A stretch of 53,806 bases of DNA from assembly GCA_032718475.1 (NCBI GenBank), contig JAUCBJ010008970.1, positions 1-53,806 of the forward strand, in the 5' to 3' direction. A program made the translations under genes and the position numbers. A model generated the notes under the pieces. That model saw nothing but the letters and a program-made list of their open reading frames with translations, was not told where the DNA came from and ran no database searches. Positions 7,617-48,473 of the stretch are shown here, piece after piece. The DNA comes from Nemertoderma westbladi (lineage: Eukaryota; Animalia; Xenacoelomorpha). Numbering within the stretch: position 1 is the stretch's first letter; every line of letters starts with the position of its first letter.

Positions 7617-8741
7617 TGTAAAAGCTTTTGCGGACATAACAAGTCATTTTTCCGCAATGCGCAGAATACTCTAAAATAGCCCTAAAATTATTCAACTACG
7701 CGACGGGAAGGAATTAGAGCCGGGATGACGAAATCTATCAGCTGATTCTTTGTGGACGTGGAGGTTTCTTTGTTCTGTCTTATTCAGCCAATCGGAGCGA
7801 TTTTCACTTTACAGCTAACAGAGACCTACCTGAGAAACTCGCGCAATGCATGATGGTTATTATTTTTCTGAGAATTAGATTCAGCTCAGAATTCTGTGCT
7901 TCTGTACGGAAGTTTCAGACTTTGGCCCGGGAACATCTGATGGCCTTGGTTATAGGAACGTAAATCTATTAACCTGGAAACACCTCATTTCGAACATTAC
8001 GAACATTTCATTCATTCATTTCATTCTCATTTCACCGCACTATTTTACTTCTGTTTTATATAGTATTAATTGTTGTTATATTAATGGATGTTGATGTTAT
8101 ATTTGGAGAATACCGATAAATAATCATAAACCCCTCAATCTTATTGATTACTGAGGTAAGAGGAAAAGAGTCTACCGGTAGCAACTGCGACTTAAATTTT
8201 AGTGGTTTTGTGTGAATTAAATGCTATTTCATAATCCCTACGTGTGTCAGTTGCAATCCTCCTTATATATGATCAAATTCAGTGACGGTCGGCAAATTAG
8301 TGTGAAGTAGTGTAAAGTAGTGTGAAGTCGTGTGAAGTAGTGTGAAGGTTAATAAAGCATCTCCTAAAGAATGCGCTATTTACGAAACTCTGTGGCATCT
8401 AGTTGTGATTAGTATAAGTCATAACTCTGTTTTTATACTTAAAGCGCCACGTCCTAAAGGAACTGTTAATATTTCCCTGAAAGTAAATATAGTTGTCAGA
8501 AATTATATAGTAGTGATCAATCGAATAATACAGAGTAGTTCTACACTGCAATACTTCCCAAGGAACCCGAATCCAGTCTCCCACACAGTTTTTTTTTCGC
8601 GTTTTTTTTTCGCGCACGGACTGGCTTCGGCGGATGTAACTTCAGTACACCAGGTAATTGGTAAGGGCTAAAGTCGATTTATAAACAAGAGGACAATTAA
8701 AATTGGCAGGTTAAACTGCTAAAGGTCTGAAAGCGCGAACA
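7617..8741 (+). mobile_element. Solo LTR of a BEL/Pao family related to the full-length element at 25623-44319
   Basis: TG...CA ends (TGTAAAAGCTTTTG ... GGCAGGTTAAACTGCTAAAGGTCTGAAAGCGCGAACA) closely match the reverse complement of the full element's LTR termini; internal blocks are shared (CCACGTCCTAAAGGAACTGTTAATATTTCC); perfect 5-bp TSD CTGAT at 7612-7616 and 8742-8746. Confidence 0.92.
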
Positions 8742-25545: not shown

Positions 25546-25622
25546 GTCAATGTTCTCAATTATATTTTTTATTCGGTTATATGTAGGCCTGTCATATGGA
25601 ACTCATGGTTATTAATACCCTG

Positions 25623-26812
25623 TGTTCGCGCTTTTGAAGACCTTTAGCAGTTTAACCTGCCAAAATTTATATGTCTTTTAGTTAATTAAAACACCTTTAG
25701 CATACGACAATATTTAATGCTAATACGCAAAACATTAGCCGAAGTCAGCCCATGCGCGATCATTCACCCGATGGATCTACACCCGGGAGGCTGAATTCGG
25801 ATGCTTAAATTTTATTATTGCAGTGTAAGGTTGCAGCGTAAACTTACTGTATTATTCGATAGATCGTTAATAATTAATTCCTGACAGATATTATTGGCTT
25901 TCGGGAAATATTAACAGTTCCTTTAGGACGTGGCGCTCTATCTATTTAAACAGAACTAGGACTTATACTAAACGCAACGATACTGCTTATGATTAAAGTA
26001 TAAAGCGTATTCTTTAGGAAATACTTTGTTACCAATCACAATCATGCACACTATTCTGCCGACCGTCAGTATATTTGATCACACATAAAGAGAGCAGTAA
26101 TTGACTCATGTAGGGTCTGCTAAATAACATTAGATTCAATACACACCACATTAATATAAATCGCAATTGTTATGTATAGCCGGTCTCTCTAACCTGTAGT
26201 GTATCAAGAAAATTGGGAATTTTGGGTGATTTATCCGTATTCTCCAAAGAGCAATATTTCCATCAACAAATAGGTACAATTAATAACTGACGGTAAATAA
26301 CAGTACAAACAATATGATTAATGCAGTTAAATTAAGTGAGTTAGTGAGTTCGTTCGGTAACAGTTTATACTTTCGATAATTTAAGCAGTTTACTAGAGTT
26401 CTTCCCAAAAAGCCGGTGTTATGGCGAAAAATGGGAACATAACAACAGAATCATATAAAATCATATGACTACTACTACTATACGAGTATACCAAAAACTC
26501 TTATTCCACGAAGCCCCGTTCAACACAGAGGATGAGCATAGAGATAGGAAATTCAGTTCAGTAGCGCTGGGATAGGTCGAAATCAACGCCTACGCAAATT
26601 CTATTGGCCGACACGAACAGCAAGGCTAAGGCAACCTCTCTAAGCTAGTTGGCCGATTAAACTGAGCCCAGATATCTCCGTACAGCACATCAGCCAATAA
26701 GCTGGTAGCTTGCACTATTTTAGTTATAAATCCCTTTGAGAGTATTCTAGCGACTGGGGGGGAACTGGCCAACAAAGGCAAACGTATCAGTTATCCCACA
26801 AAAGCTTTTACA
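25623..26812 (-). repeat. 3' LTR (1190 bp)
   Basis: TGTTCGCG...GCTTTTACA on the + strand; near-identical to 43110-44319. Confidence 0.97.
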
Positions 26813-26822
26813 CCGCTCCCAG
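26813..26822 (-). other. Polypurine tract
   Basis: Sense sequence CTGGGAGCGG directly precedes the TGTA start of the 3' LTR, as expected for a short BEL-type PPT. Confidence 0.75.
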
Positions 26823-26890: not shown

Positions 26891-29800
26891 TTAGTCTTTC
26901 TTGCGCGGACGGCGTTTACGCAGTTTTTTAAAGCTAGCAAGAGTCCTTTTCTCTTTGGGGCGAGCCACTTTACGAGGAGGGCTATAACTCCTGGGTGAAG
27001 GGTGCAATATGATTGCATCAGAAGGGATGGGATTGTGATCGGTATATCCGCCGGTCGAAGTACCGGGTTGATTGACATCAACGTCCGGGGAGAGGGGTCT
27101 AACGGCTTTGAGAGCTCGTTTCAAGACAGCCGCTCTTACGGGTCCTTTACGAGTGGTCTGAACGAGGGCCGTGGGTGGACCATAGGCAGTTAGAAACTTC
27201 CTTGGTTTAATGGTTCTTTCCAACTCGCGTTCGCGGGCTCTGTACTCGTAAGGCCGTCGATATACTTCTTGTAACTCGGGGTGTGAGTTGACAAATAAGT
27301 CTCCATAGGCCGGATCTTGACGGATAAAGTTTATTAAGTTATACGAATTGATGTCACTCGGATTAATGCTCCTGAGGAATTTGCGTACATATTTGGTTGA
27401 AATACATTCTCCAACGCGCTTCAATAGTTCATAACTTGATAGGCGCGATTTCTGCTCGACGGAGGCAAACAAATAAGGATGGAACGCATAAACTCCTTCG
27501 TAAGCGCGTCCAGGATAATAGCGATGGCGTGAATCACAATGTAAATCAGCGTTCGCTTCCCAAGCTCTGATATAACGTAGTACAATCATTTCATCTACGC
27601 TCTCTAAATCATGGTTAAAGGGACAATCAAAGCTGGCGTGTCCTTTTAGTTGACAATGATGGCATTGAGTCATAAATTGGGGGCAGACAGCAAAAATGTG
27701 CAAATTATTAAGCCGACAATATGCACAATAGATTTCCATCGACGGTTGCTCGTGGAAATAGGAACAGAGATCGTTGGTATCCATAGACGTAATATGGTCT
27801 CTCGATGCACACAGCCGACAACGTTGTCGTGAAACATAATTGGCATGGCGATAATCATACGCAGTAAGACACTGGGGACCTTGATACCATTCCAATATGT
27901 AGTCGCTATCGCTACTCCGAGACGTGGGGGGCTGAATCTCTTCAGATTCTAAACATATGGGTTCGTCTTCCCCTTGTATAGTTGAGGTAGGCGTGGCTGT
28001 CTCCTCAAGTGGACCTACCGTCTGAATTTCCACGACAGAATAACCGGTGGGGATCCGAGGTCTTTGGATAACCGAGGAGTGCAGGTTTATTACACAAATG
28101 TCTCTGAAAATAGCGAATCCAGCGCTATCTAACTTCTCCGCAGCCGAGTCTCTTAAGCTGAGCTTGGTCAAAGCGCGGTCTTTGAATTGGCTATCCACGT
28201 TGCGAAACGGGGTTAAAAACCGTCGGAAACATTCAAAGCGGATGAATTTATTATGTTCATCTAGCTTAGCGAGTTTGGTCCCAAGGATTAATGGATGGGC
28301 GCGTATAGTGCGACTGCACACATCGGCTAGCCAACCGGAAAGTGCGGTGTTTTCGAAGATCGTGTAGATAGCTAAGGAGGGACGGAGTGGAACACTCATG
28401 AAGCTATACACGGCGCCAGGTGCGGTCAACGGTCCGTCAAAGTATAATCGAGAATAATGGTCTCCGTATACTTGTTGATAGTTGATGGGATTTCCGACCT
28501 TGAAATTCCACCCGTATTCCTGAAAGGCAAGATGTCCGATGGAAGTTCGTTGCACCTTTGTAATGTTGCTAGACACATTAGCATACATGGTGCGAAAGAA
28601 ACCTCGGCCTTCGGCCCAAGGAGCTATCAGCTGAGTATCCACGAAAGGATAGGGGATATTCTCCATATTCCGAAAGTCGTTTTGGAGATCTCCGTAAACA
28701 GCTGAGCCGATTTTAATGATTCTTTCGTTGAATAACATCTCGAGAACGGGCTGGGGTAACATCGATCCATCGATACCCATGGCCGGCTTGCGTTCGGTGT
28801 CAATGACGTAACGCTGCGCGAGTTCGAATTGTCCATGTCGGAGATTCTTTTGCGTTTCGGTGAGAGTTTCGAAGGAATAATCGATCACGTCGGAACACGC
28901 TCGCGTAAACACGTGAGTGGAGCCAGCTAATCCGCGTATGTGTATCATGCGCGTAGTTCCTAATTCTCCGATTGGAACGCTACCTTCGTTATCGTAAGTA
29001 ACAACGCCATACATCTCAATGATATTAAGAGTTTCATTCCACTCTTTGGTGGCGTTCTCGAGGGTCATCCCTACCGGATGCCACAAGGTGGCGCATTGAT
29101 TAGCGTCAGGGAGATCACTATACTTCATATATCGAGTGGTATACGTCTCCACATTTCCATATCTTTGGATTTTCTCCTCCTCGAATAATACGTCTAGATT
29201 CCAATGGACTAATCGAGTTTTAATAAATCCATCGAGATTATAAGGAGGTTCTGTATCCTTCTCTATTCGAGAAACGTTATATGGTTTTCGAAATGAGTTT
29301 ACCTTTACTAATTGATCCAGATGTTTTTGCAATTGTTCGAGTTCGACAATGTCCAGAGGATTTATTAGTGGTAGAAACTTTAAATCATGCGTCGGATCTT
29401 CTGGTTTTACCATATAATATTGAGTCAGATTAACGTAATAAGGGTGATCTTTAATTCCATAAAAAGAGTTCTGTAAAGGTCTAGCGCGTATGTTGACATC
29501 GTGTACCATACGACGGACAAGATCCGCTCGATTGTCCGGAGGTTCAACGAGTATACCGTCAACTCGAGCGGCCTCGATTGGCGGACGCTGTAACATAGGA
29601 GCGTCAGCGATAAGATTTTGCGATCTGATGCTGATATCAACCGGTTGGGGTTGTATCTTTGCGAAAAGTTTGTCTCCGAAATGCGGAACCATCGAGGGAT
29701 GACGGACGGTTTTAGAGTAGAGATCGGTTATGAGTATCTGAGTTTCGGGTTGGGCTAAAGCGGCTTCTTCTCTCTCATCCATTTCCGTATGCCTCTCCTC

Positions 29801-31144
29801 CAGTTGATTCTCCTCCGCCTGTTTCTGCAAGCGTTCTTCCAGAAACTCCTGTAGAGAATACGTACGTCCAAGCTCGATGTCCTCTTCGAGGTTTTGGATT
29901 TCTCTATCAAACTGCGGCAAGGCTAGCTCTTTCACCGATTGGACCTGCTGCTGTAATTTACGTTTCTCTAGAAAATCCTGGGTTCCCTTTCCGATTTTCT
30001 GTCGGATGGCGTCTAGAGCGTTTCTGATGACACTCTCCTCGACTTCCGTGGCAGGTTGTATCGGAGTTAATCCTGGCCGGTTGTAAGGATTAAATGGCGA
30101 TGTTAGATGTCCGCGTCCCAATCCGGTTAAATAGGATGGTCGAATATCCAACGAACCTACCGCCGGAACACCACCGATTAACTGCTCGGGTAACACCAAA
30201 TCCTTGAACAGTGAGTATAATTCGGGAGGATCAGTGATACTGTTAGGATCAAGAGTTTGAGGTCTCACGGGGAAATGGGGAGGTCTGACCGAGTATTCCG
30301 GAACTCTGATCATGGGTTTATTTAGCGATCGTTTTAGACGGGCGATCGTAGGTGATACGTCGAACAGGTTTCGCTCGAAACTCCCGTAAGTATAACGCGT
30401 AAAACTGTGTTTAGCACAACGTCTCCGCGGATGTTTATGTCTTTCCGTTTGCTGGTTAGGTCTAGGACATGAGTCACAATAATACCAAAGACGTACGTCC
30501 TGCAGAGGAAACGCGGGTGATCGTTCTCCAGTTTTGCAATACTCTTCCATTTGTTCAAAGCTGTCCGGGACAACAGGCAGTGGACGATCTGCGGTAAGAT
30601 ACATCATGGTGAAATAGAGTCGTTTGAGTTCTACCATGGGATCGTGATGTATACCTTGAGGATATCGAGTCTCTAGGTTCTGTTGACTGGCAATATTGAG
30701 ATAGGTTTCCCGCAAAAATTCCAAGTAGTCGTTGAAGTTGATGCGCTTATCGGGTTCTTCAACGTTTTCTCTGTCGAGTAGGTTGCGAATAGAGTTCTCG
30801 TGTTCTATTCTCGGTTTATCGTTACGATTCCGCTGGGCATGATATTTAAATAAAACCATTTCCCTTTCGGTGTCTACATCATCAGTATCATGTAAATCGG
30901 TAGGATGGCCGGTAGTTAAGAAGTCCATATACGTACCATTACGATTCGTATAGCGAGTGGTGAATTTTCTATAGTCCGCTTCACGCGTAAGTTGTTCCTG
31001 GGACATCGGCGGTTCGATATAACGACCATCGTCCTCCGTAATAGTCGGATCGGCTTCACCGCGTATCAAGCTATCCACAAACGCTTGTAAAGGTAGAGTA
31101 TATCGCTCTCTAATACCAAGGTCATCTTCTATCAATTCCGTCAT
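26891..31144 (-). CDS. Retrotransposon accessory ORF2 (1417 aa): putative DEDDy 3'-5' exonuclease plus CCHC zinc knuckles
   Basis: Exo I-like VTYD718NE720G; Exo II-like LPQPVLEMLFNERIIKIGSAVYGD819L followed by FVDTQ and SIGHLA; Exo III-like PLRPSLAIY927TIFE931. Knuckles CAYC-x5-H-x4-C (from aa 1140) and CHHC-x4-H-x4-C (from aa 1161); basic NLS-like C-terminus; no obvious signal peptide or TM anchor. The ORF itself is certain; the exonuclease call is by eye. Confidence 0.75.
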   Translation of the reverse strand: MTELIEDDLGIRERYTLPLQAFVDSLIRGEADPTITEDDGRYIEPPMSQEQLTREADYRKFTTRYTNRNGTYMDFLTTGHPTDLHDTDDVDTEREMVLFKYHAQRNRNDKPRIEHENSIRNLLDRENVEEPDKRINFNDYLEFLRETYLNIASQQNLETRYPQGIHHDPMVELKRLYFTMMYLTADRPLPVVPDSFEQMEEYCKTGERSPAFPLQDVRLWYYCDSCPRPNQQTERHKHPRRRCAKHSFTRYTYGSFERNLFDVSPTIARLKRSLNKPMIRVPEYSVRPPHFPVRPQTLDPNSITDPPELYSLFKDLVLPEQLIGGVPAVGSLDIRPSYLTGLGRGHLTSPFNPYNRPGLTPIQPATEVEESVIRNALDAIRQKIGKGTQDFLEKRKLQQQVQSVKELALPQFDREIQNLEEDIELGRTYSLQEFLEERLQKQAEENQLEERHTEMDEREEAALAQPETQILITDLYSKTVRHPSMVPHFGDKLFAKIQPQPVDISIRSQNLIADAPMLQRPPIEAARVDGILVEPPDNRADLVRRMVHDVNIRARPLQNSFYGIKDHPYYVNLTQYYMVKPEDPTHDLKFLPLINPLDIVELEQLQKHLDQLVKVNSFRKPYNVSRIEKDTEPPYNLDGFIKTRLVHWNLDVLFEEEKIQRYGNVETYTTRYMKYSDLPDANQCATLWHPVGMTLENATKEWNETLNIIEMYGVVTYDNEGSVPIGELGTTRMIHIRGLAGSTHVFTRACSDVIDYSFETLTETQKNLRHGQFELAQRYVIDTERKPAMGIDGSMLPQPVLEMLFNERIIKIGSAVYGDLQNDFRNMENIPYPFVDTQLIAPWAEGRGFFRTMYANVSSNITKVQRTSIGHLAFQEYGWNFKVGNPINYQQVYGDHYSRLYFDGPLTAPGAVYSFMSVPLRPSLAIYTIFENTALSGWLADVCSRTIRAHPLILGTKLAKLDEHNKFIRFECFRRFLTPFRNVDSQFKDRALTKLSLRDSAAEKLDSAGFAIFRDICVINLHSSVIQRPRIPTGYSVVEIQTVGPLEETATPTSTIQGEDEPICLESEEIQPPTSRSSDSDYILEWYQGPQCLTAYDYRHANYVSRQRCRLCASRDHITSMDTNDLCSYFHEQPSMEIYCAYCRLNNLHIFAVCPQFMTQCHHCQLKGHASFDCPFNHDLESVDEMIVLRYIRAWEANADLHCDSRHRYYPGRAYEGVYAFHPYLFASVEQKSRLSSYELLKRVGECISTKYVRKFLRSINPSDINSYNLINFIRQDPAYGDLFVNSHPELQEVYRRPYEYRARERELERTIKPRKFLTAYGPPTALVQTTRKGPVRAAVLKRALKAVRPLSPDVDVNQPGTSTGGYTDHNPIPSDAIILHPSPRSYSPPRKVARPKEKRTLASFKKLRKRRPRKKD

Positions 31145-31187
31145 ATCTGCTATCTGAGTTTATTAATATCAATATGAGTTAATATTT

Positions 31188-32764: not shown

Positions 32765-35700
32765 CTACGTTGAAGAGCCCCTAGATGTTTGAGGTATTAG
32801 GGAGGTGGTCGTGGGAAGAGTGTCTTGTCTTCCATAGTTTCCGGAGAGTTCCCTGTCTCTTTCCAGCAAACATAAACGACCAACTGGGCGATTGAGTTGT
32901 TGCGTCTCAAAGATTATCCCGGGTTTCTTGAAGTTACGCCGCATTACGACGAGTTCTACTGAGCGCACTAGACCATCCTCCGAGATGTGCGTCTCGATGA
33001 TACGACCGATCTGCCACCGTCTACGTGGGAGGTCCGGATCTACAATAAGGACCATGTCTCCGGCGCTGACATTTTCCTGCTGCGCAAACCACTTAGTTCG
33101 AAGTTGTAGCGTGGGCAGATAATGTTTCTCAAAATGGTCAGCGAAACGACGGGATAGCAACTGCATAAGCTGCCAAGTTCGACGACAGTATTCATCTCCA
33201 TCGGCAATCTCGGATTGTGGGAGCATGGCTACAGGTTTCTTAAGTAGGAAGTGCGCGGGTGTTAGCGCTTCCAGGGAGTCGATACTCGATGAGACTGGCA
33301 TAAGCGGTCTCTCGTTAAGATAGGCAGCGATTTCTTCCATTAACGTCCGTAGAAGTTCGTCGGTGAGATATGCGCGGCACGGCACTATAAAGTGAAATGC
33401 GGTCTTGACACTTCGAATTAATCTCTCCCAACTTCCTCCCCACCAAGGGGCGTCGGCGGCGTTAAAGGTCCAGCTAGACGCCGTTATCCGTAGCTGGTCA
33501 TCCACCTGTCTTTGATTCCAGTCCTTTACGTAAGCCTGAATTTCGTTGTTGGCACCAATGAAGTTCGTTCCCTTATCGGATCTCATCGTATTGCTAGTGC
33601 CGAAACGAGCGATCTGTCGTCGTAGACATAAGACGAAGCTGTTAGTAGATAGATCGTTCACCATATCGAGATGGATAGCTCTACAAGTCATGCAGACAAA
33701 GATTACGCACCATCTCTTGATTATAGTTCTAGCACGATATACTTCAATAGGGCCAAATAAATCCACACCAGTATTAGTAAAGGGTGGTTCATAAAAGCTT
33801 ACTCGTTCCCTAGGTAATTCTGCCTCTCGCTGTGTTAAAGGCCTACTGAATACTTTCCTACAAGGTATGCAGTTCCTAAGAACTTGATTCAGAGCTCTAC
33901 GTGGTTTATGAAAATAATAGCGGGTTCGAATCTCGCTAAGAACTCGTTCTCTACCAGCATGATACAATTTACTGTGAACGTCTACAATCATCTTGATTTG
34001 TACTTCAAGATTACTAATGAGTATAGGGAATTTAGTATCAAAGGACAATGGGGCGTTCGTAAGCCTTCCTCCAACACGTATTAACCCATCTATCATTGTG
34101 CTAGAGAAGCGATCCCTTAAGCGCATCTGCGGATTTCTTAATAGCAGAAAATACCTATCGGAATCCTCATAGCATTGCAATAGTCTCAGTAGCTGCTTAT
34201 TAGTTTCTTCATGCTCCTGGTAGCTGATCTTCTCCTTTAGAAACCGGTCTGATATCTTGTACTTAGGTAGATCTTTAATAACATGAACTTGCGCAGATGT
34301 TACCGGAGCAGGATCACTAGTGGTCTTCTTCCTGGAGTAATGATGGTGAAAACATCTCTTTAAGTATGTGATAGCTTTACAGAGACGATTCCAGGAACTG
34401 TAATGATGCAGTGCTCTCTGCAGCAGGGGTGAGATTCCTTGCGAGACGTCTGGTATCTCAGATTTCCAATCTCTATCTCTAATTTCCACAACAGATTTGT
34501 TTGTGGCGAGGGATTGTGGATCCGAAGTATCGTTCTCGGCAGTATGTAATACAGATAGGTCGATTGTCGGTTTAAATAACTTCGATTTACTTGTCCGAAT
34601 TTTGGGTTTGACTTTCTCCGCTCCCTTGGCTTGTCTAATCTCAGCCGTAGTAAGGTGAGGAGGCCATTCATCCTCTTCCTTGCTCAAGAAGTCGGGTCCA
34701 CCCAACCAATCAGGGGTATCTATCAGTTCCTGTGGAGTTGCTCCTCTGGAGGCGATGTCAGCTGGGTTAATCGTACCAGGGCAATGTCTCCATTGATCTA
34801 TCGTTGTGCGACTAAGAATAATGGCCACTCTGTTAGTAACAAAGATGCTGAACTGACAGACTTCATTCGTTATATATTCCAATACAAGTAAAGCGTCGGT
34901 CCAATAAACAATTTTCTCCAGTGGATAATCGATCTGTTCTGTTACATTCCGGCCGATAGCTGTAGCATATAATGCTGCTTTTAACTCCGCCCGAGGAACC
35001 TTAAGCTTGTTGTTAATCAATGCCTTAGAGGTAACCAAGGCAACTTTGATTCCATCCGGAGTTTCGACTCGCAGATATGCTACTATACCGATCCCCATAT
35101 CGCTGGCATCTCCAAATACATGGAGTTGATAGGAATACGTAGGGAGAACATGACCAAAATATGAACGGGAAATTATAAAGTTCTCGATGGCAGGTAGCGA
35201 ATCCTCCCATTTCATCCATTTCTTTAATAGTTCTCCCTTGAGTGGATCGTCCCACGAGTGGTTTTCCAGCCACATTTGTTGTACTAAACTCCGAGCAATC
35301 AATATAACTGGGCTAATAAATCCCAAGGGATCGAAATAAGTGCTCAGAATACTTAAACAAATCCGTTTGGTCCGAACTGGATTATCTCGCTGTTTTAACT
35401 GAAAAAACAGGATATCTCTTTCTGTGTCCCACTTCAAGCCAAGCGTCTTGGTTTCCGGAAGATCATCATGTATTAAGTCGAGATCTTTTGACCCCCGGTC
35501 TTCTACAGATATTGCTTCCAGAAACTCACGGCAGTTGCTGGTGAACTTCGTCAATCGAAATCCACCTCTTTTCAAACACTCAACCGTTCCTTTCGCGACA
35601 TCAATGGCTTCCTTTACTGATGGAAGGGACTTTAAGTTGTCGTCCATGTATATGTCTCGTTTGATGTTATCTATCACCTCTTTGGAGAAGGCATCCCGGT

Positions 35701-38700
35701 TGTCATCCGCAGTGGTACGGACCACTGAGCAGGCGTTTGAAGGGCTTGATATAATCCCAAAAGCCTGGATGGTCATCCAGTACTCTACCGGTTTCTGGTT
35801 GAGATCTCCTTCAGGCCACCACAGGAATCTTAGGCTGTCTCTATCACGATCCAACGCCTTGACTTGTAGGAACATTCCTTCTATATCGGAGGCGAACGCG
35901 ATGGAATATTGTCTTAATCTCAACAGTATCCCCAACAAAGATTGGAGCAAGTTGGGTCCTGGTAACAACTCGGAATTAAGGGATTGGCCCATATATAGGG
36001 CGGAGCCATCAAATACAACCCGTACTTCATGGGGTTTACCGGGTTTGGGAACATAATGATGTGTTAGATAATAAGTCCTTTCAGTTATTGGAGTTCCTTC
36101 CGGTACTCGCTCCGCATATCCCTTTGTGATAAATTTCTTCAACTGAGTTTGGTACATTTCCTTAGCTGAAGCGTTTGCCGTAAGACGTCGATGTAATTGA
36201 TTGATTCTTTTCTCAGCCAAGGGTCTGTTATTTATAAATCTGGGTTCACGTTTTCGGAAGGGTAGTCCGATTTCATATCTACCTTGATCTTTTAAAAAAC
36301 GTGTGGTTGTTTCCTGGATTTGCTTGGCTCTTTCTTCTTCTATTGACAGGGCTTTGTCGTATGAATTGGGTTCTACCAATTCTTGGGTAAAGAATCGTAT
36401 GGCGAGTTCGTCCCGAGTTCTAGCGTTGTAGCGCTCTACCTCGTCATTAAGTTCGTCATTATAAATAATGGATTCCGTTGGGCAAATCAGTTGACATAGG
36501 TTCGTTTGGTTTTTCCAAGTTTGGTTTTCGGTAAGTAGGTCAAATGTGTTCTCTTCTTCGAAGAGTTGGTAGATGTCGTCATTATCCGAGGAGTATGGTG
36601 TTCCCTCAGTTAGTTCGTCCACCTCGCTGCTTTCCTCTTCCCAATCGCTTACCTGATATATTTGTTCGTGGGGCATTCTCTCTTCTAGAGTTCTACGGGA
36701 AGGGCCAGTAAAGTACCAACCTACTCTAGTTCTTACCGCATAAGTTTGCAGTGGCTGTGGTTGAGCAGGCCGTTTCTCTAATGTTTCGAGCGCCTCATGC
36801 GCGTTTTGGCCGATAAGTATTTGCACTCCAGGATAGTCTGTCTGGAATCGAGGTATCTTAAGATGTTGGACGCTCTCATCCTCGTCCCAATTGTAAAGGT
36901 CTGCTTGGGTAGTAGCGAAGTTCCTTATAGCCACCATTTTTACTGACCTTACACCTTGTGTTCCTAACTTATCCTGGGGGGTGGACAACACACCTACATA
37001 GTAATCTGCCGTCAGGGTAGATTTCCAAACCTGCATAATTCCTGACATGTTCAATTTAGTCCAGAACTTGGGTTGTCCAGCAAAGATATCTTCGGCTAGT
37101 TCTTGATCGATGAAGGTTCCTGTGCTGCCTGAGTCAAGTAGGGCGTTCACTATGTAGCTTTTGTTAATACCGTGAACTCTTACCTGAACTACAGGAAATT
37201 CTCTGATTCCTACGTTGGAAGTTGGAGCTTTCCAAGATGATTGTTTGGTAAAAATAGTAGGGGGAAACTCCTCGTTGATGTCCTTTTCGTAAGTAAGTGC
37301 TCGATACACCGTGGTGTTTATTAGATAACAGGATTCATTGGCGTCGGAGAATTCGTCAGTATAGAATCCTTCCATCTCAGACTCCTGATCAGTGTCGTTT
37401 ACATCACTGAATTGGACATGTAGTTCGGACTCACTTACCTGACTCGGCTTGTCCCGTTCGAACTCACTATGTAACAAGATGTGATGTTTCGCACCACACT
37501 TTTCACACTTTATGTCGGAGTAACAGGTTCGCCGTTGGTGTCCTGGTCTGAGGCAATTATAGCATAACCGCTTGTCCCACACAACTGTACGTCTGTCTAC
37601 AAGGGATTTCTTTAGAAATTCCGCACACGCACTCAAACGGTGAGTCCCGTCGCACAGCGCACAGTTAGGTTTTATGTTACTTACTTTCACTTGGGTAGTC
37701 TGATGCACTCTCGTTCTTTCTTCGGGCTTTCTTCCGCGCATTCTGCTAGGAGACTGAGGAGGGGTCTTAGTAACTTGTTCTCTCCTATTATTGGTTTGAG
37801 CTTTGTATTTACTTACGTCCTTGGAGGTTTTGTCAACATAATACGATCGATCTGTATCTTTCCCGCTGTCCTCTTCTTGGGAAGCTTGGCTTTCGCCGTC
37901 GTCAGTGTAACACACCGGTGTTACTCTTCTCCTAGAAGTGGGTTTCTCACTTACCTTATTTTCCGATGTTTTCTCTCTGGACTGCTTGATAAGTTGTAGT
38001 TTGACTTCACCATCTAAGAAAGACATGAGATCAGCCATAGTAGGACTTCGTCGTTGTTGTTCATTCATGTACAACACTTTCTTGTCCCAGCGTGTACATA
38101 CTCCACCCTTTGGTAAAGTAGAGACTACGGCTCCAATAACCATGGAACTCTGGTATTCGTGCGACTTACCTAACCAGTCCAGTTGTCTACAGATCTCTTG
38201 AATTTCATCGGAAAACTCTATAATCCCACTACTAAGGAAGTGTCGGGGGGCTACTAATTTTGCATACAAATACTTAGCTATGTTATCCTTATTACCATAC
38301 CTGATGTTTAATGTATCCCAAACTTGTCTTAATCCTTCTGGATGTCCAATAAACTTTAACGCCATTAACTTGGGAGGTCCTTCCAAACACTTGATGAGGA
38401 ATCTAAGTTTCTCTCCGTTAGATAGTACAGAGTTCTGTATGCTATCTTTGTAATATTCGTTGAAAGGTAACCATTTCATTTCGTCTCCATTGAATTTGAC
38501 GATCTCTCCCACTTTGACCGCTTGGCGGGCTTCTGTTCTAGCCATCTGACGCGTAAAGCTTTCTTGGGCCATCGTGTTATTTAATATCGAATTATCGGTA
38601 TATAAATTTCTCGGATCATTATCAGGTCTATAGGGAATATCATTAATAACAGGTCTATAATCACCCTTAATAGGGTTTGTTATAGGAGTTTCAACTTCAC

Positions 38701-40927
38701 TAGCAGTATAGATGCGTGTAGGCTCCACACCTTGCGCATGTAGTACTTCAGACCTAACAGGTTGACACAATGTTACAGGGGGTATTGGTATGCCTTTTTG
38801 TATATTGACTAATTTGTCGCGTTCTAGCGCGATACTTTGCTGCACTTCTTGCAACTCTGCTCTACCTTCCCTCACTGTTCCCTTAAGTTGGTGGACAGTC
38901 TCCTGCATCTGTCCCAGCAGGAGATTCATCCCCCGCCGTCCCTCTTCCACCCACTCAACCGCCGAAGCGGGAGTCGCCAACATAGTAGCGGGCTGACGCG
39001 GGACGACGGGAGACAAATTATTGATTTCTCTCTCTGCTATCTGGACAGGGGTATTTGCTTGGACTGTTCCACCGGGTACAGGCAGTGTAGTACTATGTAA
39101 AGGGAATTTAGAGTTAAGCTCTGGAAGTGTAGGGGTCTCTAGCACAGAAGTGACTTTGGGAACAACAGGCCTAATTATTTCAGGTTCATCGACTATAGTA
39201 GGGAGTCTTTTGACCTGGATAAATTGTTCTATGGGTTCTGCACTACCTAAGTCTGTGCTAGTTAGCTGTCTTTTAACAGCTGGGGGCAAATCAGGCAATT
39301 TGCGACGGTAATATGTTTTTCTACGCCTACTTAGATGAGATCTATTTCCTCCGCCTTCAGGATCGGTAGTATCGCCTTCCTCCGAGGATGTGTATCCCTG
39401 GCGCTTGGGAGTAGATTTTCTCATCATCTGCATTTGATTAGCAGTAAACTGTTTATTTATACTGTCTTGTGTCTCTTGCAGATTTTCCAACTCCAGTTGG
39501 GTAGTCTGCTCAGATGCTCTCCTTTCTGCTTCTGCCACTGCCTTTGCTGCTTTTCTTTCTGCTTCTGCATCTGCTGCCGCTGCCTTTCTTTCTGCTTCTG
39601 CTTCTGCCGCAGCCACCGCCTTTGCTGCTTTTCTTTCTGCTTCTGCATCTGCCATAGCCGCCGCCTTTGCTGCTTTTCTTTCTGCTTCTGCATCTGCCAT
39701 AGCCGCCGCCTTTGCTGCTTTTCTTTCTGCTTCTGCATCTGCCATAGCCGCCGCCTTTTGTTCCTCTATCCTTCTTTTCTTTATTTGTTCTTCTCGGACT
39801 CTAGTGAGACGGAGTTTTTCATCACATTCAGCTTGGTTTGCAGCTAGCATTTCGGCATCGATTGAGTCCAATACAAGCTTGGTTCCTTCACTATTAGGGG
39901 AAAGTCCAGACAGCCGTCTCCTCAACTCTTCGTCTCCTAGGAATCGCTGATAGTCGGACAAATAAATGTCGATAGCGTCTCTAGTTCGCGGTTTCTCGGC
40001 GGCCTCTTCGCTTTCCGCTTGAGGAAGGGTAACATCAGTTGGTTCTTCATAAGTTGATCTCTCAGCCAGCTGGGATTTCCACTGGGCCGTTTCCTGTACT
40101 TTGAGATCTACCCGATGTAGCCAAGTTTTTACAGCAACCTGCAGCGACGTGTCCTGTCTTCTTTTGGAAGTTTCCTCAAAGGCTGAGAGGATTAGTCGTA
40201 TGCGTAGGGTTCTTTCCCGTATTTGATATAGCAACTCTTCCTGCTCTTGAGGTCCGTGAGGTTGTCGAAACAGTTGTTCTTCCAATCGATCCAAAGATCC
40301 GAAGAATCCCTGCACATATCCTGCTGCCGACCTCTTCCAAACAGCTGGATCCATTGTATCTTTAGCCACTCCCATCCTGTGTATATCTTCCCAAGTAGCC
40401 TCGGACAGATCCAACGGAAGTCCGAGTCCGGGAAAGTTCCATTGTGATTCAACAATAGATATCAATTCTTCCCTGGCGTATCCCGCGTAATTATCTTGGG
40501 TCGCTCGCTTATTCTTCGCCCAGTCGGCTTGATGTTCCTCCACCGCAATGAATATAGTAGTTAGCACTGCAGCAGGAAGAGTAAGAAGGGGGTCCGAGTA
40601 GACTGTATCAGCCATCTGCACTCCATGTTCGGGAGTCAACTCTACAGTATCCGAACTGCTGGAGCTATCGGGTCGCTGGGAAGTAGGTTCTTGACCAAGA
40701 TGTTGCTGCGATAGGACAACTGCCTCTTGGTCCCGTTTTACCTGTGCCCGAGTGCCTATGATGGACCTATGGTGGACTAGCCTAGGGTCTGATACTACTG
40801 GAGGGATGACCTTTTTTACAGTAGGAGGTGAGCCGAACTCCTTTCTTATTCGCTCCACACTCCTATCTGAATCACAGATAGTTGTATCGATCAGACTGTC
40901 TGACAGGTTTTGCTGAGTGTCAGACAT
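32765..40927 (-). CDS. BEL/Pao gag-pol polyprotein (2720 aa, intact)
   Basis: Gag core (KFNGDEMKWLPF...EKLRFLIKCLEG); three knuckles (CALCDGTH...C, CYNCLRPGH...C, CEKCGAKHHILLH); protease ALLDSGS; RT (RVVFDGS, DIEGMFLQV, YMDD); RNase H (FGDAS, PRAEL, WTDA, NPADIASRG); integrase (HHCC, GVDLFGP, SDKGTNF, GGSWERL); BEL-type C-terminus (YLPTLQLRTKW...DGLVRSV...RPVGRLCLL). Confidence 0.98.
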   Translation of the reverse strand: MSDTQQNLSDSLIDTTICDSDRSVERIRKEFGSPPTVKKVIPPVVSDPRLVHHRSIIGTRAQVKRDQEAVVLSQQHLGQEPTSQRPDSSSSSDTVELTPEHGVQMADTVYSDPLLTLPAAVLTTIFIAVEEHQADWAKNKRATQDNYAGYAREELISIVESQWNFPGLGLPLDLSEATWEDIHRMGVAKDTMDPAVWKRSAAGYVQGFFGSLDRLEEQLFRQPHGPQEQEELLYQIRERTLRIRLILSAFEETSKRRQDTSLQVAVKTWLHRVDLKVQETAQWKSQLAERSTYEEPTDVTLPQAESEEAAEKPRTRDAIDIYLSDYQRFLGDEELRRRLSGLSPNSEGTKLVLDSIDAEMLAANQAECDEKLRLTRVREEQIKKRRIEEQKAAAMADAEAERKAAKAAAMADAEAERKAAKAAAMADAEAERKAAKAVAAAEAEAERKAAAADAEAERKAAKAVAEAERRASEQTTQLELENLQETQDSINKQFTANQMQMMRKSTPKRQGYTSSEEGDTTDPEGGGNRSHLSRRRKTYYRRKLPDLPPAVKRQLTSTDLGSAEPIEQFIQVKRLPTIVDEPEIIRPVVPKVTSVLETPTLPELNSKFPLHSTTLPVPGGTVQANTPVQIAEREINNLSPVVPRQPATMLATPASAVEWVEEGRRGMNLLLGQMQETVHQLKGTVREGRAELQEVQQSIALERDKLVNIQKGIPIPPVTLCQPVRSEVLHAQGVEPTRIYTASEVETPITNPIKGDYRPVINDIPYRPDNDPRNLYTDNSILNNTMAQESFTRQMARTEARQAVKVGEIVKFNGDEMKWLPFNEYYKDSIQNSVLSNGEKLRFLIKCLEGPPKLMALKFIGHPEGLRQVWDTLNIRYGNKDNIAKYLYAKLVAPRHFLSSGIIEFSDEIQEICRQLDWLGKSHEYQSSMVIGAVVSTLPKGGVCTRWDKKVLYMNEQQRRSPTMADLMSFLDGEVKLQLIKQSREKTSENKVSEKPTSRRRVTPVCYTDDGESQASQEEDSGKDTDRSYYVDKTSKDVSKYKAQTNNRREQVTKTPPQSPSRMRGRKPEERTRVHQTTQVKVSNIKPNCALCDGTHRLSACAEFLKKSLVDRRTVVWDKRLCYNCLRPGHQRRTCYSDIKCEKCGAKHHILLHSEFERDKPSQVSESELHVQFSDVNDTDQESEMEGFYTDEFSDANESCYLINTTVYRALTYEKDINEEFPPTIFTKQSSWKAPTSNVGIREFPVVQVRVHGINKSYIVNALLDSGSTGTFIDQELAEDIFAGQPKFWTKLNMSGIMQVWKSTLTADYYVGVLSTPQDKLGTQGVRSVKMVAIRNFATTQADLYNWDEDESVQHLKIPRFQTDYPGVQILIGQNAHEALETLEKRPAQPQPLQTYAVRTRVGWYFTGPSRRTLEERMPHEQIYQVSDWEEESSEVDELTEGTPYSSDNDDIYQLFEEENTFDLLTENQTWKNQTNLCQLICPTESIIYNDELNDEVERYNARTRDELAIRFFTQELVEPNSYDKALSIEEERAKQIQETTTRFLKDQGRYEIGLPFRKREPRFINNRPLAEKRINQLHRRLTANASAKEMYQTQLKKFITKGYAERVPEGTPITERTYYLTHHYVPKPGKPHEVRVVFDGSALYMGQSLNSELLPGPNLLQSLLGILLRLRQYSIAFASDIEGMFLQVKALDRDRDSLRFLWWPEGDLNQKPVEYWMTIQAFGIISSPSNACSVVRTTADDNRDAFSKEVIDNIKRDIYMDDNLKSLPSVKEAIDVAKGTVECLKRGGFRLTKFTSNCREFLEAISVEDRGSKDLDLIHDDLPETKTLGLKWDTERDILFFQLKQRDNPVRTKRICLSILSTYFDPLGFISPVILIARSLVQQMWLENHSWDDPLKGELLKKWMKWEDSLPAIENFIISRSYFGHVLPTYSYQLHVFGDASDMGIGIVAYLRVETPDGIKVALVTSKALINNKLKVPRAELKAALYATAIGRNVTEQIDYPLEKIVYWTDALLVLEYITNEVCQFSIFVTNRVAIILSRTTIDQWRHCPGTINPADIASRGATPQELIDTPDWLGGPDFLSKEEDEWPPHLTTAEIRQAKGAEKVKPKIRTSKSKLFKPTIDLSVLHTAENDTSDPQSLATNKSVVEIRDRDWKSEIPDVSQGISPLLQRALHHYSSWNRLCKAITYLKRCFHHHYSRKKTTSDPAPVTSAQVHVIKDLPKYKISDRFLKEKISYQEHEETNKQLLRLLQCYEDSDRYFLLLRNPQMRLRDRFSSTMIDGLIRVGGRLTNAPLSFDTKFPILISNLEVQIKMIVDVHSKLYHAGRERVLSEIRTRYYFHKPRRALNQVLRNCIPCRKVFSRPLTQREAELPRERVSFYEPPFTNTGVDLFGPIEVYRARTIIKRWCVIFVCMTCRAIHLDMVNDLSTNSFVLCLRRQIARFGTSNTMRSDKGTNFIGANNEIQAYVKDWNQRQVDDQLRITASSWTFNAADAPWWGGSWERLIRSVKTAFHFIVPCRAYLTDELLRTLMEEIAAYLNERPLMPVSSSIDSLEALTPAHFLLKKPVAMLPQSEIADGDEYCRRTWQLMQLLSRRFADHFEKHYLPTLQLRTKWFAQQENVSAGDMVLIVDPDLPRRRWQIGRIIETHISEDGLVRSVELVVMRRNFKKPGIIFETQQLNRPVGRLCLLERDRELSGNYGRQDTLPTTTSLIPQTSRGSST
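39520..39760 (-). repeat. In-frame 45-bp coding tandem repeat (AAAMADAEAERKAAK) in the Gag N-terminal extension
   Basis: Three near-perfect units plus about three degenerate units, all preserving the reading frame. Confidence 0.9.
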
Positions 40928-41054
40928 GTTTAGTTATACAGTTGAATGTCTACTACTATAGTTTCAGTTAAAGCAAGTCTAGTAATTCAGTATGACCGCA
41001 AGCCTAGCGATTTATTACCGGTACCGTTACTCGGTGTAACGTGATATATATACA

Positions 41055-41310
41055 ATATATTAGAATACCGGTATGCTTATAATATATAAGTATTATTACA
41101 GACTAGATTTGTCACAGAGTACCGGTATATAATTTTAGCACAAATATATATATATATATATAGTAGGCCTATAATGAATACCGGTATACAGCTTACACTT
41201 ATAGCATATAAGTATAATTATGAACTAGAATTAATTACAGAGTACCGGTATGATTTCAGCTCAAATTTATAGAAATAAATATAATAAGCCTATAGTAAGT
41301 ACCGGTATGT
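41055..41310. repeat. Degenerate tandem duplication (about 115-125 bp) punctuated by TACCGGTA in the 5' leader
   Basis: TACCGGTA at 41066, 41120, 41179, 41243 and 41300 with repeated flanks (ATATAAGTAT, ACTAGA, ACAGAGTACCGGTAT). Confidence 0.7.
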
Positions 41311-42294: not shown

Positions 42295-42757
42295 CTGGCA
42301 GACTACTATCAAGCCTAAACAAACTACAGTATGTGCAGATTCTGAAACTGTTAGTTAGTATGCGTTCTAGCACGGTAGTACGACTTATTCTTTAAGAGGG
42401 GATTGACCTTACCGCATATGGCTGCCCCAACTTACTAACGGCACTTTATCAGACCAACTCTACACACGCAGCAATCCCTTCAGGCCTAAGAATAGCTAGA
42501 CAACAATCTAGCCTACAAAATATTTGAGTAATAACTATTACGGTACCTGAACAGACCACACAAACAAACACAGACTAAAACACTGGCAGACTACGATCAA
42601 GCCTAAATAAACTACAGTATATGCAGACTCTGAAACTGTTAGTTAGTATGCGTTCTAACACGGTAGTACGACTTATTCTTTAAGAGGGGATTGACCTTAC
42701 CGCATATGGCTGCCCCAACTTACTAACGGCACTTTATCAGACAAACTCTACACACGC
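42295..42757. repeat. Direct repeat (175-bp core, 288-bp period) in the 5' leader
   Basis: 42295-42469 and 42583-42757 are near-identical. Confidence 0.95.
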
Positions 42758-43096
42758 CGTAATCTCTCCAAACTCAACAACAGTCAGACAGCAGTTCAGC
42801 CTACAATTATTCGAACAATCTGAGCAGACTTACACGTCTTCAGCTCAATATTAACTTACTAGGAAATAAAACCAACAGAAATAAGTAAGCTCCAAAAGAA
42901 ACAAGGGGTGTACAGTCCCTAATCTCTTAAACAGCCTACCGGTATACAATAATCAAAATCGAATAATACCAAATGTACTTGTACAGCAGTACCGGTACCG
43001 GTGATGACAGTTAGGCCTACTGACCTGCAGAAGTACCGGTTCAGTTTTACCAGTCACTACGGTATCTTGCAACCTTATTGCCTACTGCAATAAGAT

Positions 43097-43109
43097 TATA
43101 AACTGTTAC
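43097..43109 (-). other. Primer-binding-site position: non-tRNA type, complementary to the element's own LTR
   Basis: Sense GTAACAGTTTATA abuts the 5' LTR; there is no TGG. It is the exact complement of sense TATAAACTGTTAC at 43876-43864 (also 26369-26357). Confidence 0.7.
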
Positions 43110-44319
43110 TGTTCGCGCTTTTGAAGACCTTTAGCAGTTTAACCTGCCAAAATTTATATGCCTTTTAGTTAATTAAAACACCTTTAGCATACGACAACAA
43201 TTTATGCTAATACACAAAACATTAGCCGAAGTCAGCCCATGCGCGATCATTCACCCGATGGATCTACACCCGGGAGGCTGAATTCGGATGCTTAAATTTT
43301 ATTATTGCAGTGTAAGGTTGCAGCGTAAACTTACTGTATTATTCGATAGATCGTTGATAATTAATTCCTGACAGATATTATTGGCTTTCGGGAAATATTA
43401 ACAGTTCCTTTAGGACGTGGCGCTCTATCTATTTAAACAGAACTAAGACTTATACTAAAACGCAACGATACCGCTTATGATTAAAGTATAAAGCGTATTC
43501 TTTAGGAAATACTTTGTTACCAATCACAATCATACACACTATTCTGCCGACCGTCAGTATATTTGATCACACATAAAGAGAGCAGCAATTGACTCATGTA
43601 GGGTCTGCTAAATAACATTAGATTCAATACACACCACATTAATATAAATCGCAATTGTTATGTATAGCCGGTCTCTCTAACCTGTAGTGTATCAAGAAAA
43701 TTGGGAAATTTGGGTGATTTATCCGTATTATCCAAAGAACAATATTTCCATCAACAAATAGGTACAATTAATAACTGACGGTAAATAACAGTACAAACAA
43801 TATAATTAATAGTGAATTAAGATTGATTAGTTAAGTAAGTGAGTAGTTAGTTAGTTCGATTCGGTAACAGTTTATACTTTCGATAATTTAAGCAGTTTTA
43901 CTAGAGTTCTTCCCAAAAGCCGGTGTTATGGCGAAAAATGGGAACATAACAACAGAATCATATAAAATCATATGACTACTACCACTATACGAGTATACCA
44001 AAAACTCTTATTCCACGAAGCCCCGTTCAACACAGAGGATGAGCATAGAGATAGGAAATTCAGTTCAGTAACGCTGGGATAGGTCGAAATCAACGCCTAC
44101 GCAAATTCTATTGGCCGACACGAACAGCAAGGCTAAGGCAACCTCTCTAAGCTAGTTGGCCGATTAAACTGAGCCCAGATATCTCCGTACAGCACATCAG
44201 CCAATAAGCTGGTAGCTTGCACTATTTTAGTTATAAATCCCTTTGAGAGTATTCTAGCGACTGGGGGGGAACTGGCCAGCAAAGGCAAATGTATCAGTTA
44301 TCCCACAAAAGCTTTTACA
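43110..44319 (-). repeat. 5' LTR (1210 bp)
   Basis: Direct repeat of 25623-26812 with roughly 20 small differences plus one divergent AT-rich block at about 43800-43862. Confidence 0.97.
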
Positions 44320-45130
44320 AATGGATTGTATATGGACCTTACAGATGAGTTGCAAAACCCCAAATTTATATTTATTACATTATTTTGCTACAAATAGAGT
44401 ATTGAATTTAGACTTGAATGATATAGACTTTAATAAACTCCAGTTACCATGGTAACAAGATATTTCTGGAATGTTTTCAGTTTCACTAAAAGTTCCAATT
44501 AGTGGTCCAGATAACACATTCCCAGTTTCGTAAAATTTTATCGCGAAGACTATGTCCAAATGAGTAATTTTTGTATAAAAACATCTGTTTTCAGCGGTTG
44601 TCATGGTAACTGCAAAATAGAACAATCAAATTCGGACGCAGAATAAGTTATATAGTGGGGGTAGGGGTTGGTCCCAAGTCATAACACCATAACCTTAGGC
44701 TTCAAATTAACATTTTATAAATTTTAACATCTGTTTAGCCCGGTTGCCAAGGTAACTGGATTTTCTATTTAACCTCAATCGGCTCTGCTATGGACCTTAT
44801 AGTTGAGTTGAGAAACCCCAAGTTTATATCTATTATAGTTTTCCTACAAATAGAGTTATAAATATTGACTTGAAATACATAGACTTTTTTCTAAGTCCGT
44901 TGCCATGGAAACCAGATTTTTCCTGGATATGAGACCCAGCCCAAAAGATGCGCCTCGACGAGTAGTATATACATGCAAAATTTCAGGGTACTTTTAAAGG
45001 CTAGTTTTTTCTGGAGTCAAAAAAAAACTAATCTGCTCCATACAAGTAAAAGGGCCCACTATGAATAGACCATCTCAGCTAAGGAAAATCTTTCTTAGCG
45101 AAAGTAGTTGATTTTCCTTAGCTTCGTGGA
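44320..45130 (-). mobile_element. Non-autonomous Helitron copy truncated at the LTR boundary
   Basis: Starts mid-repeat directly at the LTR edge; has an intact A|TC terminus at 45130. Confidence 0.85.
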
Positions 45131-45401
45131 TCTGAATTTCGTTGAGAAACAGCTGAGATATCGGCTTTCAAACATTGCAAGAACGATCGTCGATCGAACG
45201 ATCAGAGACTTCTTTAAAACGCCTGTAAAAAAAATTTAAAGGCAAAATCTAAAATTTTGGCTTCAGGTGGTCAACCACGGTAAGTTGAACTAGTTGTGTT
45301 TCAAATTTCAAGCAATATGATAAAGATTTGTAGAAAATCTGGGGGGGGGGGGGGGGGTCCGTGTCATCAGAAAATGACACTATATTACGGGTCATGGTGT
45401 A

Positions 45402-48461: not shown

Positions 48462-48473
48462 TTTATCGTTATA

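What the first reader, a model, noticed from the sequence alone, without database searches (positions are those of the whole stretch)
43097..43876. tRNA-independent, self-complementary primer-binding site: possible self-priming BEL/Pao element
Seen: the sequence right after the 5' LTR is GTAACAGTTTATA, with no TGG, so it cannot pair with a tRNA CCA end. It is the exact 13-nt complement of TATAAACTGTTAC inside the LTR (43876-43864; 26369-26357 in the 3' LTR). Pairing places the 3' C of the LTR segment on the nucleotide abutting the LTR's terminal CA, which is where minus-strand synthesis must start. The site is flanked by a U5 hairpin (TTGGCAG-GTTAAA-CTGCTAA, conserved in the diverged solo LTR) and, with no gap, by a 10-bp hairpin ATCTTATTGC-AGTAG-GCAATAAGGT. 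Known: this is the geometry of Tf1/sushi self-priming in Ty3/Gypsy elements; BEL/Pao elements are generally described as tRNA-primed. Caveat: TATAAA could be the TATA box, in which case only the 3'-LTR copy would be present in the RNA.
Basis: partly seen in the sequence, partly recalled or inferred. Interest (0 to 1): 0.85.

Follow-up and report, generated by a model that had tools for sequence, protein, structure and literature searches.

The report
BEL/Pao retrotransposon with self-complementary primer site
An animal BEL/Pao jumping gene has no tRNA landing site; the spot where DNA copying must start instead pairs with 13 letters of the element's own terminal repeat, and distant relatives show the same self-pairing with different letters, so this group likely primes its copying with its own RNA.

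Summary
Observation confirmed. The 13 bases abutting the 5' LTR are the exact complement of LTR 43876-43864 (1 of 20,000 shuffles), in an 18.7-kb BEL/Pao element. Public contigs show this non-TGG site is the family norm. Of 18 relatives fetched, 11 could be tested: 9 of 10 non-insect ones pair 11-12 nt with their own LTR (8 across a predicted GT-AG splice junction, 1 contiguous), the tenth has one mismatch, and the insect one has a TGG-type site. L010/L011 co-vary at three bases. Self-priming is therefore likely for the lineage. Open: which LTR segment primes here. The 13-mer starts with a TATA-like hexamer, lies 754 nt from the LTR end (relatives 44-153), is missing from the solo LTR, and is not favoured in whole-leader folding. 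A weaker 8-nt partner sits in a block both LTR families keep. No transcription start or priming was observed. The scan reported BEL/Pao self-priming and splice-junction primers before on other DNA; ten paper searches found no report. The element also carries a likely DEED-type exonuclease ORF.

The parts
43110..44319 (-). 5' LTR, 1210 nt, TG...CA
   Evidence: 1159 of 1189 aligned bases identical to the 3' LTR, 17 of 1142 differ outside one variable patch; no matching TSD
25623..26812 (-). 3' LTR, 1190 nt
43097..43109 (-). non-tRNA primer-binding site abutting the 5' LTR
   Evidence: covered at depth of the same order as the LTR end in public contigs, with no difference listed at bases 2-9
43864..43876 (-). 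site A: exact 13-nt complement of the PBS (LTR position 444), candidate primer end; begins with a TATA-like hexamer
   Evidence: (0 of 2000 shuffles); duplex -13.9 kcal/mol
26357..26369 (-). site A copy in the 3' LTR
43399..43406 (-). site C: 8-nt complement of PBS bases 2-9 (plus one G-U), inside a 35-nt block invariant between the two LTR families (43424-43390); rival primer end
   Evidence: 139 of 20,000 shuffles within invariant runs, a test chosen after seeing it; duplex -7.9 kcal/mol
43449..43454 (-). second TATA-like hexamer, invariant in both LTR families, 30 nt before the invariant block
   Evidence: promoter role inferred only
43837..43842 (-). initiator-like motif 32-36 nt after the start of site A (motif recalled)
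   Evidence: untested
43298..43303 (-). only AATAAA in the LTR, likely poly(A) signal
43336..43347 (-). LTR arm of a predicted 12-bp LTR-leader helix; invariant in the solo LTR
   Evidence: pair probability 0.6-1.0 in most folds, 0.03 when folded from the LTR start; 36 of 2000 shuffles
42958..42969 (-). leader arm of the same helix
43131..43150 (-). U5 hairpin
43072..43096 (-). 10-bp leader hairpin abutting the PBS; the common variant is in the loop, and a related subfamily shows a compensatory stem change
32765..40933 (-). single gag-pol ORF, 2722 aa, BEL/Pao
   Evidence: PF03564, PF05380, PF17921, PF18701; YMDD motif
26891..31159 (-). second ORF, 1422 aa: likely DEED-type 3'-5' exonuclease plus zinc knuckles
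   Evidence: no Pfam hit of its own
26813..26820 (-). polypurine tract before the 3' LTR
7617..8741 (+). solo LTR of a sister family, about 60% identical, TSD CTGAT; has site C (8461-8468), lacks site A

Best explanation
This BEL/Pao element has a primer-binding site that pairs with its own LTR instead of a tRNA, and it likely primes minus-strand DNA with a piece cut from its own RNA, most likely ending at the 13-nt segment 43876-43864. Shown: the complement, its position, its family-wide presence, and the same self-pairing with other letters in relatives. Inferred: transcription starts at or upstream of 43876; the segment pairs with the PBS between the U5 and leader hairpins; the RNase H of reverse transcriptase cuts at its 3' end as in Tf1; DNA synthesis then copies U5 and R. 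The contiguous form seen here and in L009 would arise from the spliced form of relatives by loss of the LTR intron (inferred). The exonuclease ORF could trim primer or cDNA ends (speculative).
For: 13-nt complement at offset 0 in 1 of 20,000 shuffles. PBS depth of the same order as the LTR end in X1 and X3, with no TGG variant among listed differences. 9 of 10 testable non-insect relatives have 11-12-nt own-LTR complements, each reached by at most 8 of 2000 shuffles; the insect relative with a TGG-type site has none. L010/L011 (635 of 769 LTR-plus-leader bases identical) change three exon-end bases and the three facing PBS bases together. L016/L017 keep junction and PBS unchanged at 326 of 589 LTR identity. 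The 11-nt length matches Tf1 (PMC7175516, passages). Site A is the strongest PBS partner in the LTR (-15.5 vs -9.8 kcal/mol for the next).
Against: No transcription start, cleavage or RNA-cDNA joint was observed. Site A begins with a TATA-like hexamer and has an initiator-like motif 32-36 nt on, which could leave it out of the 5' RNA. It lies 754 nt from the LTR end and 560 nt from AATAAA, against 44-153 and 0-33 in relatives. The solo LTR lacks it. Nested folding gives the site A:PBS helix a probability of 0-0.28, and 0 once the leader is included. PBS base 1 is A in 12-20% of depth, which mispairs with site A's last base unless that co-varies (not tested). Co-variation was shown in relatives, not in this family. 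In a quick tree the element is a long branch outside the 24-row clade that holds the tested loci.
Confidence: 0.55

Rival explanations
1. The element self-primes, but from site C. Transcription would start about 30 nt after the conserved TATA-like hexamer at 43454, and a capped fragment of about 27 nt ending at 43399 would pair with PBS bases 2-10. Site A would then be a U3 promoter element or a relic.
For: Site C lies in a 35-nt block invariant across LTR families that are 60% identical, starting 30 nt after an invariant TATA-like motif. This region has the highest summed depth in X1, X3 and X5. Listed PBS variants spare bases 2-9. Its distance to AATAAA (95 nt) and to the LTR end (289 nt) is nearer the relatives' layout. 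139 of 20,000 shuffles.
Against: Only 8 Watson-Crick pairs plus one G-U (-7.9 kcal/mol) against 11-12 pairs in relatives. An 8-nt complement anywhere in the LTR arises in about 13% of shuffles. Folding probability at most 0.04. It leaves the 13-nt match unexplained. No splice junction extends it.
Confidence: 0.15
2. The TATA-like hexamer of site A is the real TATA box, so only the 3'-LTR copy of site A is in the RNA. It would pair with the PBS by circularising the genome and prime after a cut that removes the 3' end of one RNA of the dimer.
For: TATA-like hexamer plus initiator-like motif at the usual spacing; a similar hexamer with initiator-like repeats sits at the matching place of the solo LTR.
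Against: In relatives the partner is mostly made by a predicted splice downstream of TATA-like motifs, so it belongs to the transcribed leader. This route needs a second intact RNA. I know no precedent (recalled).
Confidence: 0.1
3. A host RNA without a CCA end primes, for example a tRNA half cut in the anticodon loop, and the LTR pairing is a structural switch or a relic. PBS bases 2-7 are complementary to a generic Asn anticodon loop (motif recalled).
For: Half-tRNA primers exist in Ty1/copia lineages (PMC6317226, passages). The PBS core is shared by most copies in the host. Host RNAs could not be searched, as no genome is held.
Against: Ten non-insect relatives have nine different PBSs (L016 and L017 share one), each matching its own LTR or splice junction; a host primer would not co-vary with an exon end as in L010/L011. 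A 6-nt match is far weaker than 13.
Confidence: 0.12
4. The match is chance, or this copy is a rearranged one that lost a normal TGG site.
For: The LTR pair has no matching TSD and one variable patch, so this copy may be a recombinant. Divergent PBSs would be clipped as loose ends, of which 20 rows were not shown.
Against: 1 of 20,000 shuffles; the same PBS at high depth in four runs, with contigs crossing the LTR-PBS junction (two listed records have 31 or more bases on both sides); the pattern recurs in relatives.
Confidence: 0.03

Closest known systems
Tf1/Tf2 of Schizosaccharomyces pombe, Tj1 of S. japonicus and the Tf1/sushi group (Ty3/gypsy chromoviruses)
   Same: PBS next to the 5' LTR, complementary to about 11 nt of the element's own LTR RNA, no tRNA site; the primer's 3' end faces the LTR edge (PMC7175516 and PMC4600332, passages). 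A U5 stem-loop is needed in Tf1 (title of a cited paper).
   Different: This is a BEL/Pao element. [quoted passage not shown]
Belpaoviridae / Semotivirus (BEL/Pao LTR retrotransposons)
   Same: Gag-pol with the Pao peptidase, DUF1759, DUF5641 and integrase zinc domains; TG...CA LTRs; polypurine tract.
   Different: The ICTV profile describes an 18-nt PBS for tRNA-Arg or tRNA-Gly and genomes of 4.2-10 kb (PMC8742986, whole text). This element has no tRNA-type PBS, is 18.7 kb long and has a second ORF that does not look like env.
Tcn1 (gypsy) and TAR/Houba/Osr-1 (copia) lineages with predicted self-priming
   Same: Self-priming inferred from PBS-LTR complementarity in a lineage whose neighbours use tRNA (PMC6317226, passages).
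   Different: Other superfamilies; no splice-built primer in the passages read.
DEDDy (DEED) exonuclease ORF3 of bdelloid Juno and Vesta LTR retrotransposons
   Same: Extra ORF after pol with a 3'-5' exonuclease whose last motif has E in place of D (PMC5408684, passages).
   Different: Here it is in a BEL/Pao element, 1422 aa, with zinc knuckles; homology to the rotifer ORFs was not tested.

Membership tests
BEL/Pao (Belpaoviridae) | Gag-pol domain set and order, Pao-type RT/RNase H | tested here: met
BEL/Pao (Belpaoviridae) | LTRs with TG...CA and a polypurine tract | tested here: met
BEL/Pao (Belpaoviridae) | 18-nt PBS complementary to the 3' end of host tRNA-Arg or tRNA-Gly (ICTV description) | tested here: not met
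   no TGG after the LTR; a described trait, while the family rests on RT phylogeny
BEL/Pao (Belpaoviridae) | Assignment to a named superfamily (Suzu, Sinbad, Pao, BEL, Tas, Dan, Flow) | not tested
   no named reference elements in the tree
Tf1/sushi group | Ty3/gypsy chromovirus RT and integrase | tested here: not met
   Pfam domains are BEL/Pao
Tf1-type self-priming (mechanism) | PBS abutting the LTR and complementary to about 11 nt of own LTR | tested here: met
Tf1-type self-priming (mechanism) | Complement is the 5' end of the transcript | not testable with these tools
   only contigs were offered, no raw RNA reads; motif scan ambiguous
Tf1-type self-priming (mechanism) | PBS and partner co-vary | tested here: inconclusive
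   met in relatives L010/L011 and in the cross-matrix; not testable within this family
Tf1-type self-priming (mechanism) | RNase H cuts the RNA duplex to free the primer | not testable with these tools
   needs biochemistry
Splice-junction primer form (seen in relatives) | PBS complement made only across a GT-AG intron in the LTR | tested here: not met
   the window's complement is contiguous; no strict junction of 8 nt or more
DEDDy 3'-5' exonuclease (ORF2) | ExoI-III acidic motifs and fold | tested here: inconclusive
   Atlas 0.92 to PF01612 clusters; one homolog at E 4.8e-7 with a weak PF01612 hit, E 0.2; structure models unusable

The most novel reading that the evidence does not exclude
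A broad aquatic branch of BEL/Pao elements has dropped tRNA priming and builds its primer from its own leader, usually by splicing an LTR intron, so host splicing would gate reverse transcription. This 18.7-kb element is an intron-less offshoot with a very long R/U5, a two-partner RNA switch at the PBS and its own 3'-5' exonuclease that could process the primer.
Probability: 0.4. Interest if true: 0.88.

Novelty: new variant of a known kind. Interest (0 to 1): 0.72.

Why it matters
BEL/Pao elements are described as tRNA-primed, and their replication is assumed by analogy rather than tested. Self-priming in this superfamily would be an independent origin of the Tf1 mechanism. A primer joined by splicing would tie reverse transcription to host RNA processing and raise the question of how the intron survives in the 3' LTR. 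It also explains why tRNA-based PBS finders would miss these elements. Contiguous forms (this element, L009) and spliced forms give natural pairs for testing.

Tried and rejected
No host genome is held, so other copies and host RNAs could not be searched directly. LTR-pattern scans: 0 hits in viral contigs; 8 hits in metagenomes, all unrelated by blastn and GC content; 0 in genome contigs. Protein-based scan of viral contigs: 34 pattern matches, none confirmed. No RNA holder was on record, and contigs cannot show starts; this is no evidence on expression. Rfam: no match at E up to 1 over LTR and leader. ARAGORN: no tRNA gene in the window. A splice-made primer in this element was rejected: the junctions that extend or remake site A need non-consensus donors or an acceptor without a pyrimidine tract. 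The solo family's own PBS was not recovered: one mixed loose end of two X5 contigs, without TGG, could not be resolved. Seven of 18 relatives were dropped before counting: L012 (non-TGG site, LTR middle missing), L018 (LTR end not fixed), L019, L020, L025, L026 (contigs too short) and L022 (no LTR pair found). ORF2: no hit in the word-indexed protein search or PDB sequences; both AlphaFold models had pLDDT about 30, so no fold search was run. The careful tree did not finish; only the quick tree is used.

Full report
The observation. On the minus strand, a 1210-nt LTR (44319-43110) is followed without a gap by GTAACAGTTTATA. Its exact complement lies at LTR position 444 (43876-43864, 'site A') and in the 3' LTR (26369-26357). 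One of 20,000 dinucleotide shuffles of the LTR gives 13 nt at offset 0, and 8 of 20,000 do with offsets 0-3. No other of 16,252 interior positions reaches 13. Both hairpins are present; the U5 one ends 21 nt before the LTR end and is invariant in the solo LTR. The LTRs match at 1159 of 1189 bases but have no shared target-site duplication, while the solo LTR has one, so this copy may be a recombinant.

The element. A single 2722-aa ORF carries DUF1759, Pao peptidase, integrase zinc and DUF5641 domains: BEL/Pao. Named homologs come from corals, echinoderms and fish at about 40% identity. A second ORF of 1422 aa has no Pfam hit. Its middle scores 0.92 to 3'-5' exonuclease clusters in the ESM Atlas and has one homolog with the same exonuclease-plus-zinc-knuckle layout. 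Its third motif reads Y-x3-E, the DEED form reported for bdelloid retroelement ORFs (PMC5408684, passages). I rate it a likely exonuclease; no fold confirmation was obtained.

Is the PBS the family norm? No genome is held. Contigs of four public runs laid on 43015-43140 cover the PBS at summed depths of the same order as the LTR end (X1 about 470,000-510,000 against 750,000; X3 about 200,000-230,000 against 490,000), while unique flank next to the solo LTR has 11 and 24. These sums are not copy numbers, and one run may be the window's own source. Listed differences in the PBS are base 1 G to A (20% of depth in X1, 12% in X3), a one-base loss at base 10 (about 2%) and rarer changes at bases 12-13; none is listed at bases 2-9 and none makes TGG. 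A related subfamily has a compensatory change in the leader hairpin. Limits: very different PBSs would be clipped, and 20 loose-end rows were not shown.

Relatives. Earlier notes of this scan (AI notes on other genomes, used as leads) suggested looking for splice-made primers. A scan of prokaryote genome records returned 18 loci with BEL/Pao relatives, evidently host DNA. Eleven had an LTR end, a leader and enough LTR to test; seven were dropped (see Tried and rejected). Ten have no TGG site. Nine of these ten carry an 11-12-nt complement of their PBS in their own LTR: eight across a GT-AG junction with a pyrimidine-rich acceptor (L010, L011, L014, L015, L016, L017, L021, L024) and one contiguous (L009). 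Each is reached by at most 8 of 2000 shuffles under the same rule. L013 has 8 exact bases, 11 with one mismatch (146 of 2000). The insect element L023 has TGG four bases in and no self-complement. In the cross-matrix, foreign LTRs score 4-10, except L016/L017, which share a PBS. L010 and L011 change the last three exon bases (CAC to TAA) and the facing PBS bases (GTG to TTA) together. L016 and L017 keep junction and PBS although their LTRs match at only 326 of 589 bases. Caveats: I widened the offset to 0-8 and added one donor type after seeing L015, L024 and L021; LTR ends of L014, L015, L016, L021 and L024 were set by eye; three loci come from one record and two from another; splicing is predicted, not observed. 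A quick tree puts the window's RT on a long branch within the non-insect clade (support 100) but outside the 24-row clade holding the tested loci.

Which segment primes here? Site A is contiguous, and no credible junction remakes it, so it resembles L009. It is the strongest partner. Against it: it starts with a TATA-like hexamer followed by an initiator-like motif (motifs recalled); it is 754 nt from the LTR end and 560 nt from the only AATAAA, against 44-153 and 0-33 nt in relatives; the solo LTR lacks it; nested folding gives the helix 0-0.28 and prefers a 12-bp LTR-leader helix that encloses the PBS, though such folding cannot model pseudoknots. A second partner, site C (43406-43399), pairs with PBS bases 2-9 and sits in a 35-nt block invariant between the two LTR families, 30 nt after an invariant TATA-like hexamer (139 of 20,000). 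It is weak (-7.9 kcal/mol) and also not favoured in folding.

Mechanism. By analogy with Tf1, where the first 11 bases pair with the PBS and RNase H cuts after base 11 (PMC7175516, passages), I infer that the leader segment pairs with the PBS, is cut at its 3' end and is extended. In Tf1 about half of the cDNA keeps a DNA copy of the PBS at its 3' end (PMC11042837, passages); copying of the primer would keep PBS and primer matched, which fits the co-variation (inferred). The summed odds for some form of self-priming are about 0.8: site A in the 5' RNA 0.55, site C 0.15, the 3' copy of site A 0.10. A host RNA fragment gets 0.12 and chance 0.03.

What is known. The ICTV profile gives Belpaoviridae an 18-nt tRNA-Arg or tRNA-Gly PBS and calls replication poorly understood (PMC8742986, whole text). 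Self-priming is described or predicted for Tf1/sushi, Tj1, Tcn1 and TAR/Houba (PMC4600332 and PMC6317226, passages). The BEL/Pao survey PMC3118150 and the Sinbad paper PMC554778 have no occurrence of PBS or tRNA in their main text. Passages of PMC13524379, PMC3601003 and PMC6338049 added nothing on BEL priming. Ten searches listed no paper on self-priming or splice-made primers in BEL/Pao. The library lacks most subscription papers and Repbase reports, the 'bel pao' term scored zero, and I read no supplements. I recall, unchecked, a proposal that a C. elegans Cer element encodes its own tRNA-like primer. The scan itself has reported this pattern on other DNA; no look-alike of this LTR was on record.

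Verdict. The feature is real and family-wide, and it most likely marks tRNA-independent self-priming in a BEL/Pao lineage: a new variant of a known mechanism. The exact primer in this element is not settled. Interest 0.72.

Noticed in passing
window 26891-31159 (-): Second ORF of 1422 aa with a likely DEED-type 3'-5' exonuclease (about residues 720-950) and zinc knuckles in place of env; one homolog found among 1.84 billion representatives.
   Followed up: partly
window 43066-43115: Some copies in all four runs carry a tandem repeat of the last six LTR bases, the PBS and the leader hairpin, with a 34-nt spacer.
   Followed up: no
window 43347-43336 and 42969-42958 (-): Predicted 12-bp long-range helix between a conserved LTR block and the leader. 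It encloses the PBS, so primer pairing would be a pseudoknot or an alternative fold.
   Followed up: partly
window 44320-44324 and 25618-25622: The LTR pair has no matching target-site duplication and differs in one patch just after site A, so this copy may be a recombinant or an assembly chimera.
   Followed up: partly
window 40934-43109 and 31160-32764 (-): Unusually long leader (2.2 kb, with a 288-nt duplication) and a 1.6-kb spacer between the ORFs; the element is 18.7 kb.
   Followed up: no
L021:4234-4950 (+): Extra 238-aa ORF between the PBS and gag of a BEL/Pao relative; by eye it resembles an SGNH/GDSL-type hydrolase (family not tested).
   Followed up: partly
L009-L026: Eukaryotic BEL/Pao contigs sit inside 14 prokaryotic genome records, most likely host DNA binned with symbionts; one is in a long Wolbachia record.
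   Followed up: no
window 8853-10058 (+) and 12879-14390 (-): Single-ORF Rpn13/ADRM1 and sugar-transporter genes; a separate RT fragment at 3977-4903.
   Followed up: no
window 44383-49741, 312-1058 and 16578-17251: Tandem array of a roughly 455-nt repeat unit next to the 5' LTR with a related copy at the window start, and a 21-nt minisatellite.
   Followed up: no
window 43775 (-) and solo LTR 8063: A pyrimidine tract plus AG preceded by branch-point-like repeats is kept at the same place in both LTR families, about 90 nt after site A; no matching donor was found.
   Followed up: partly
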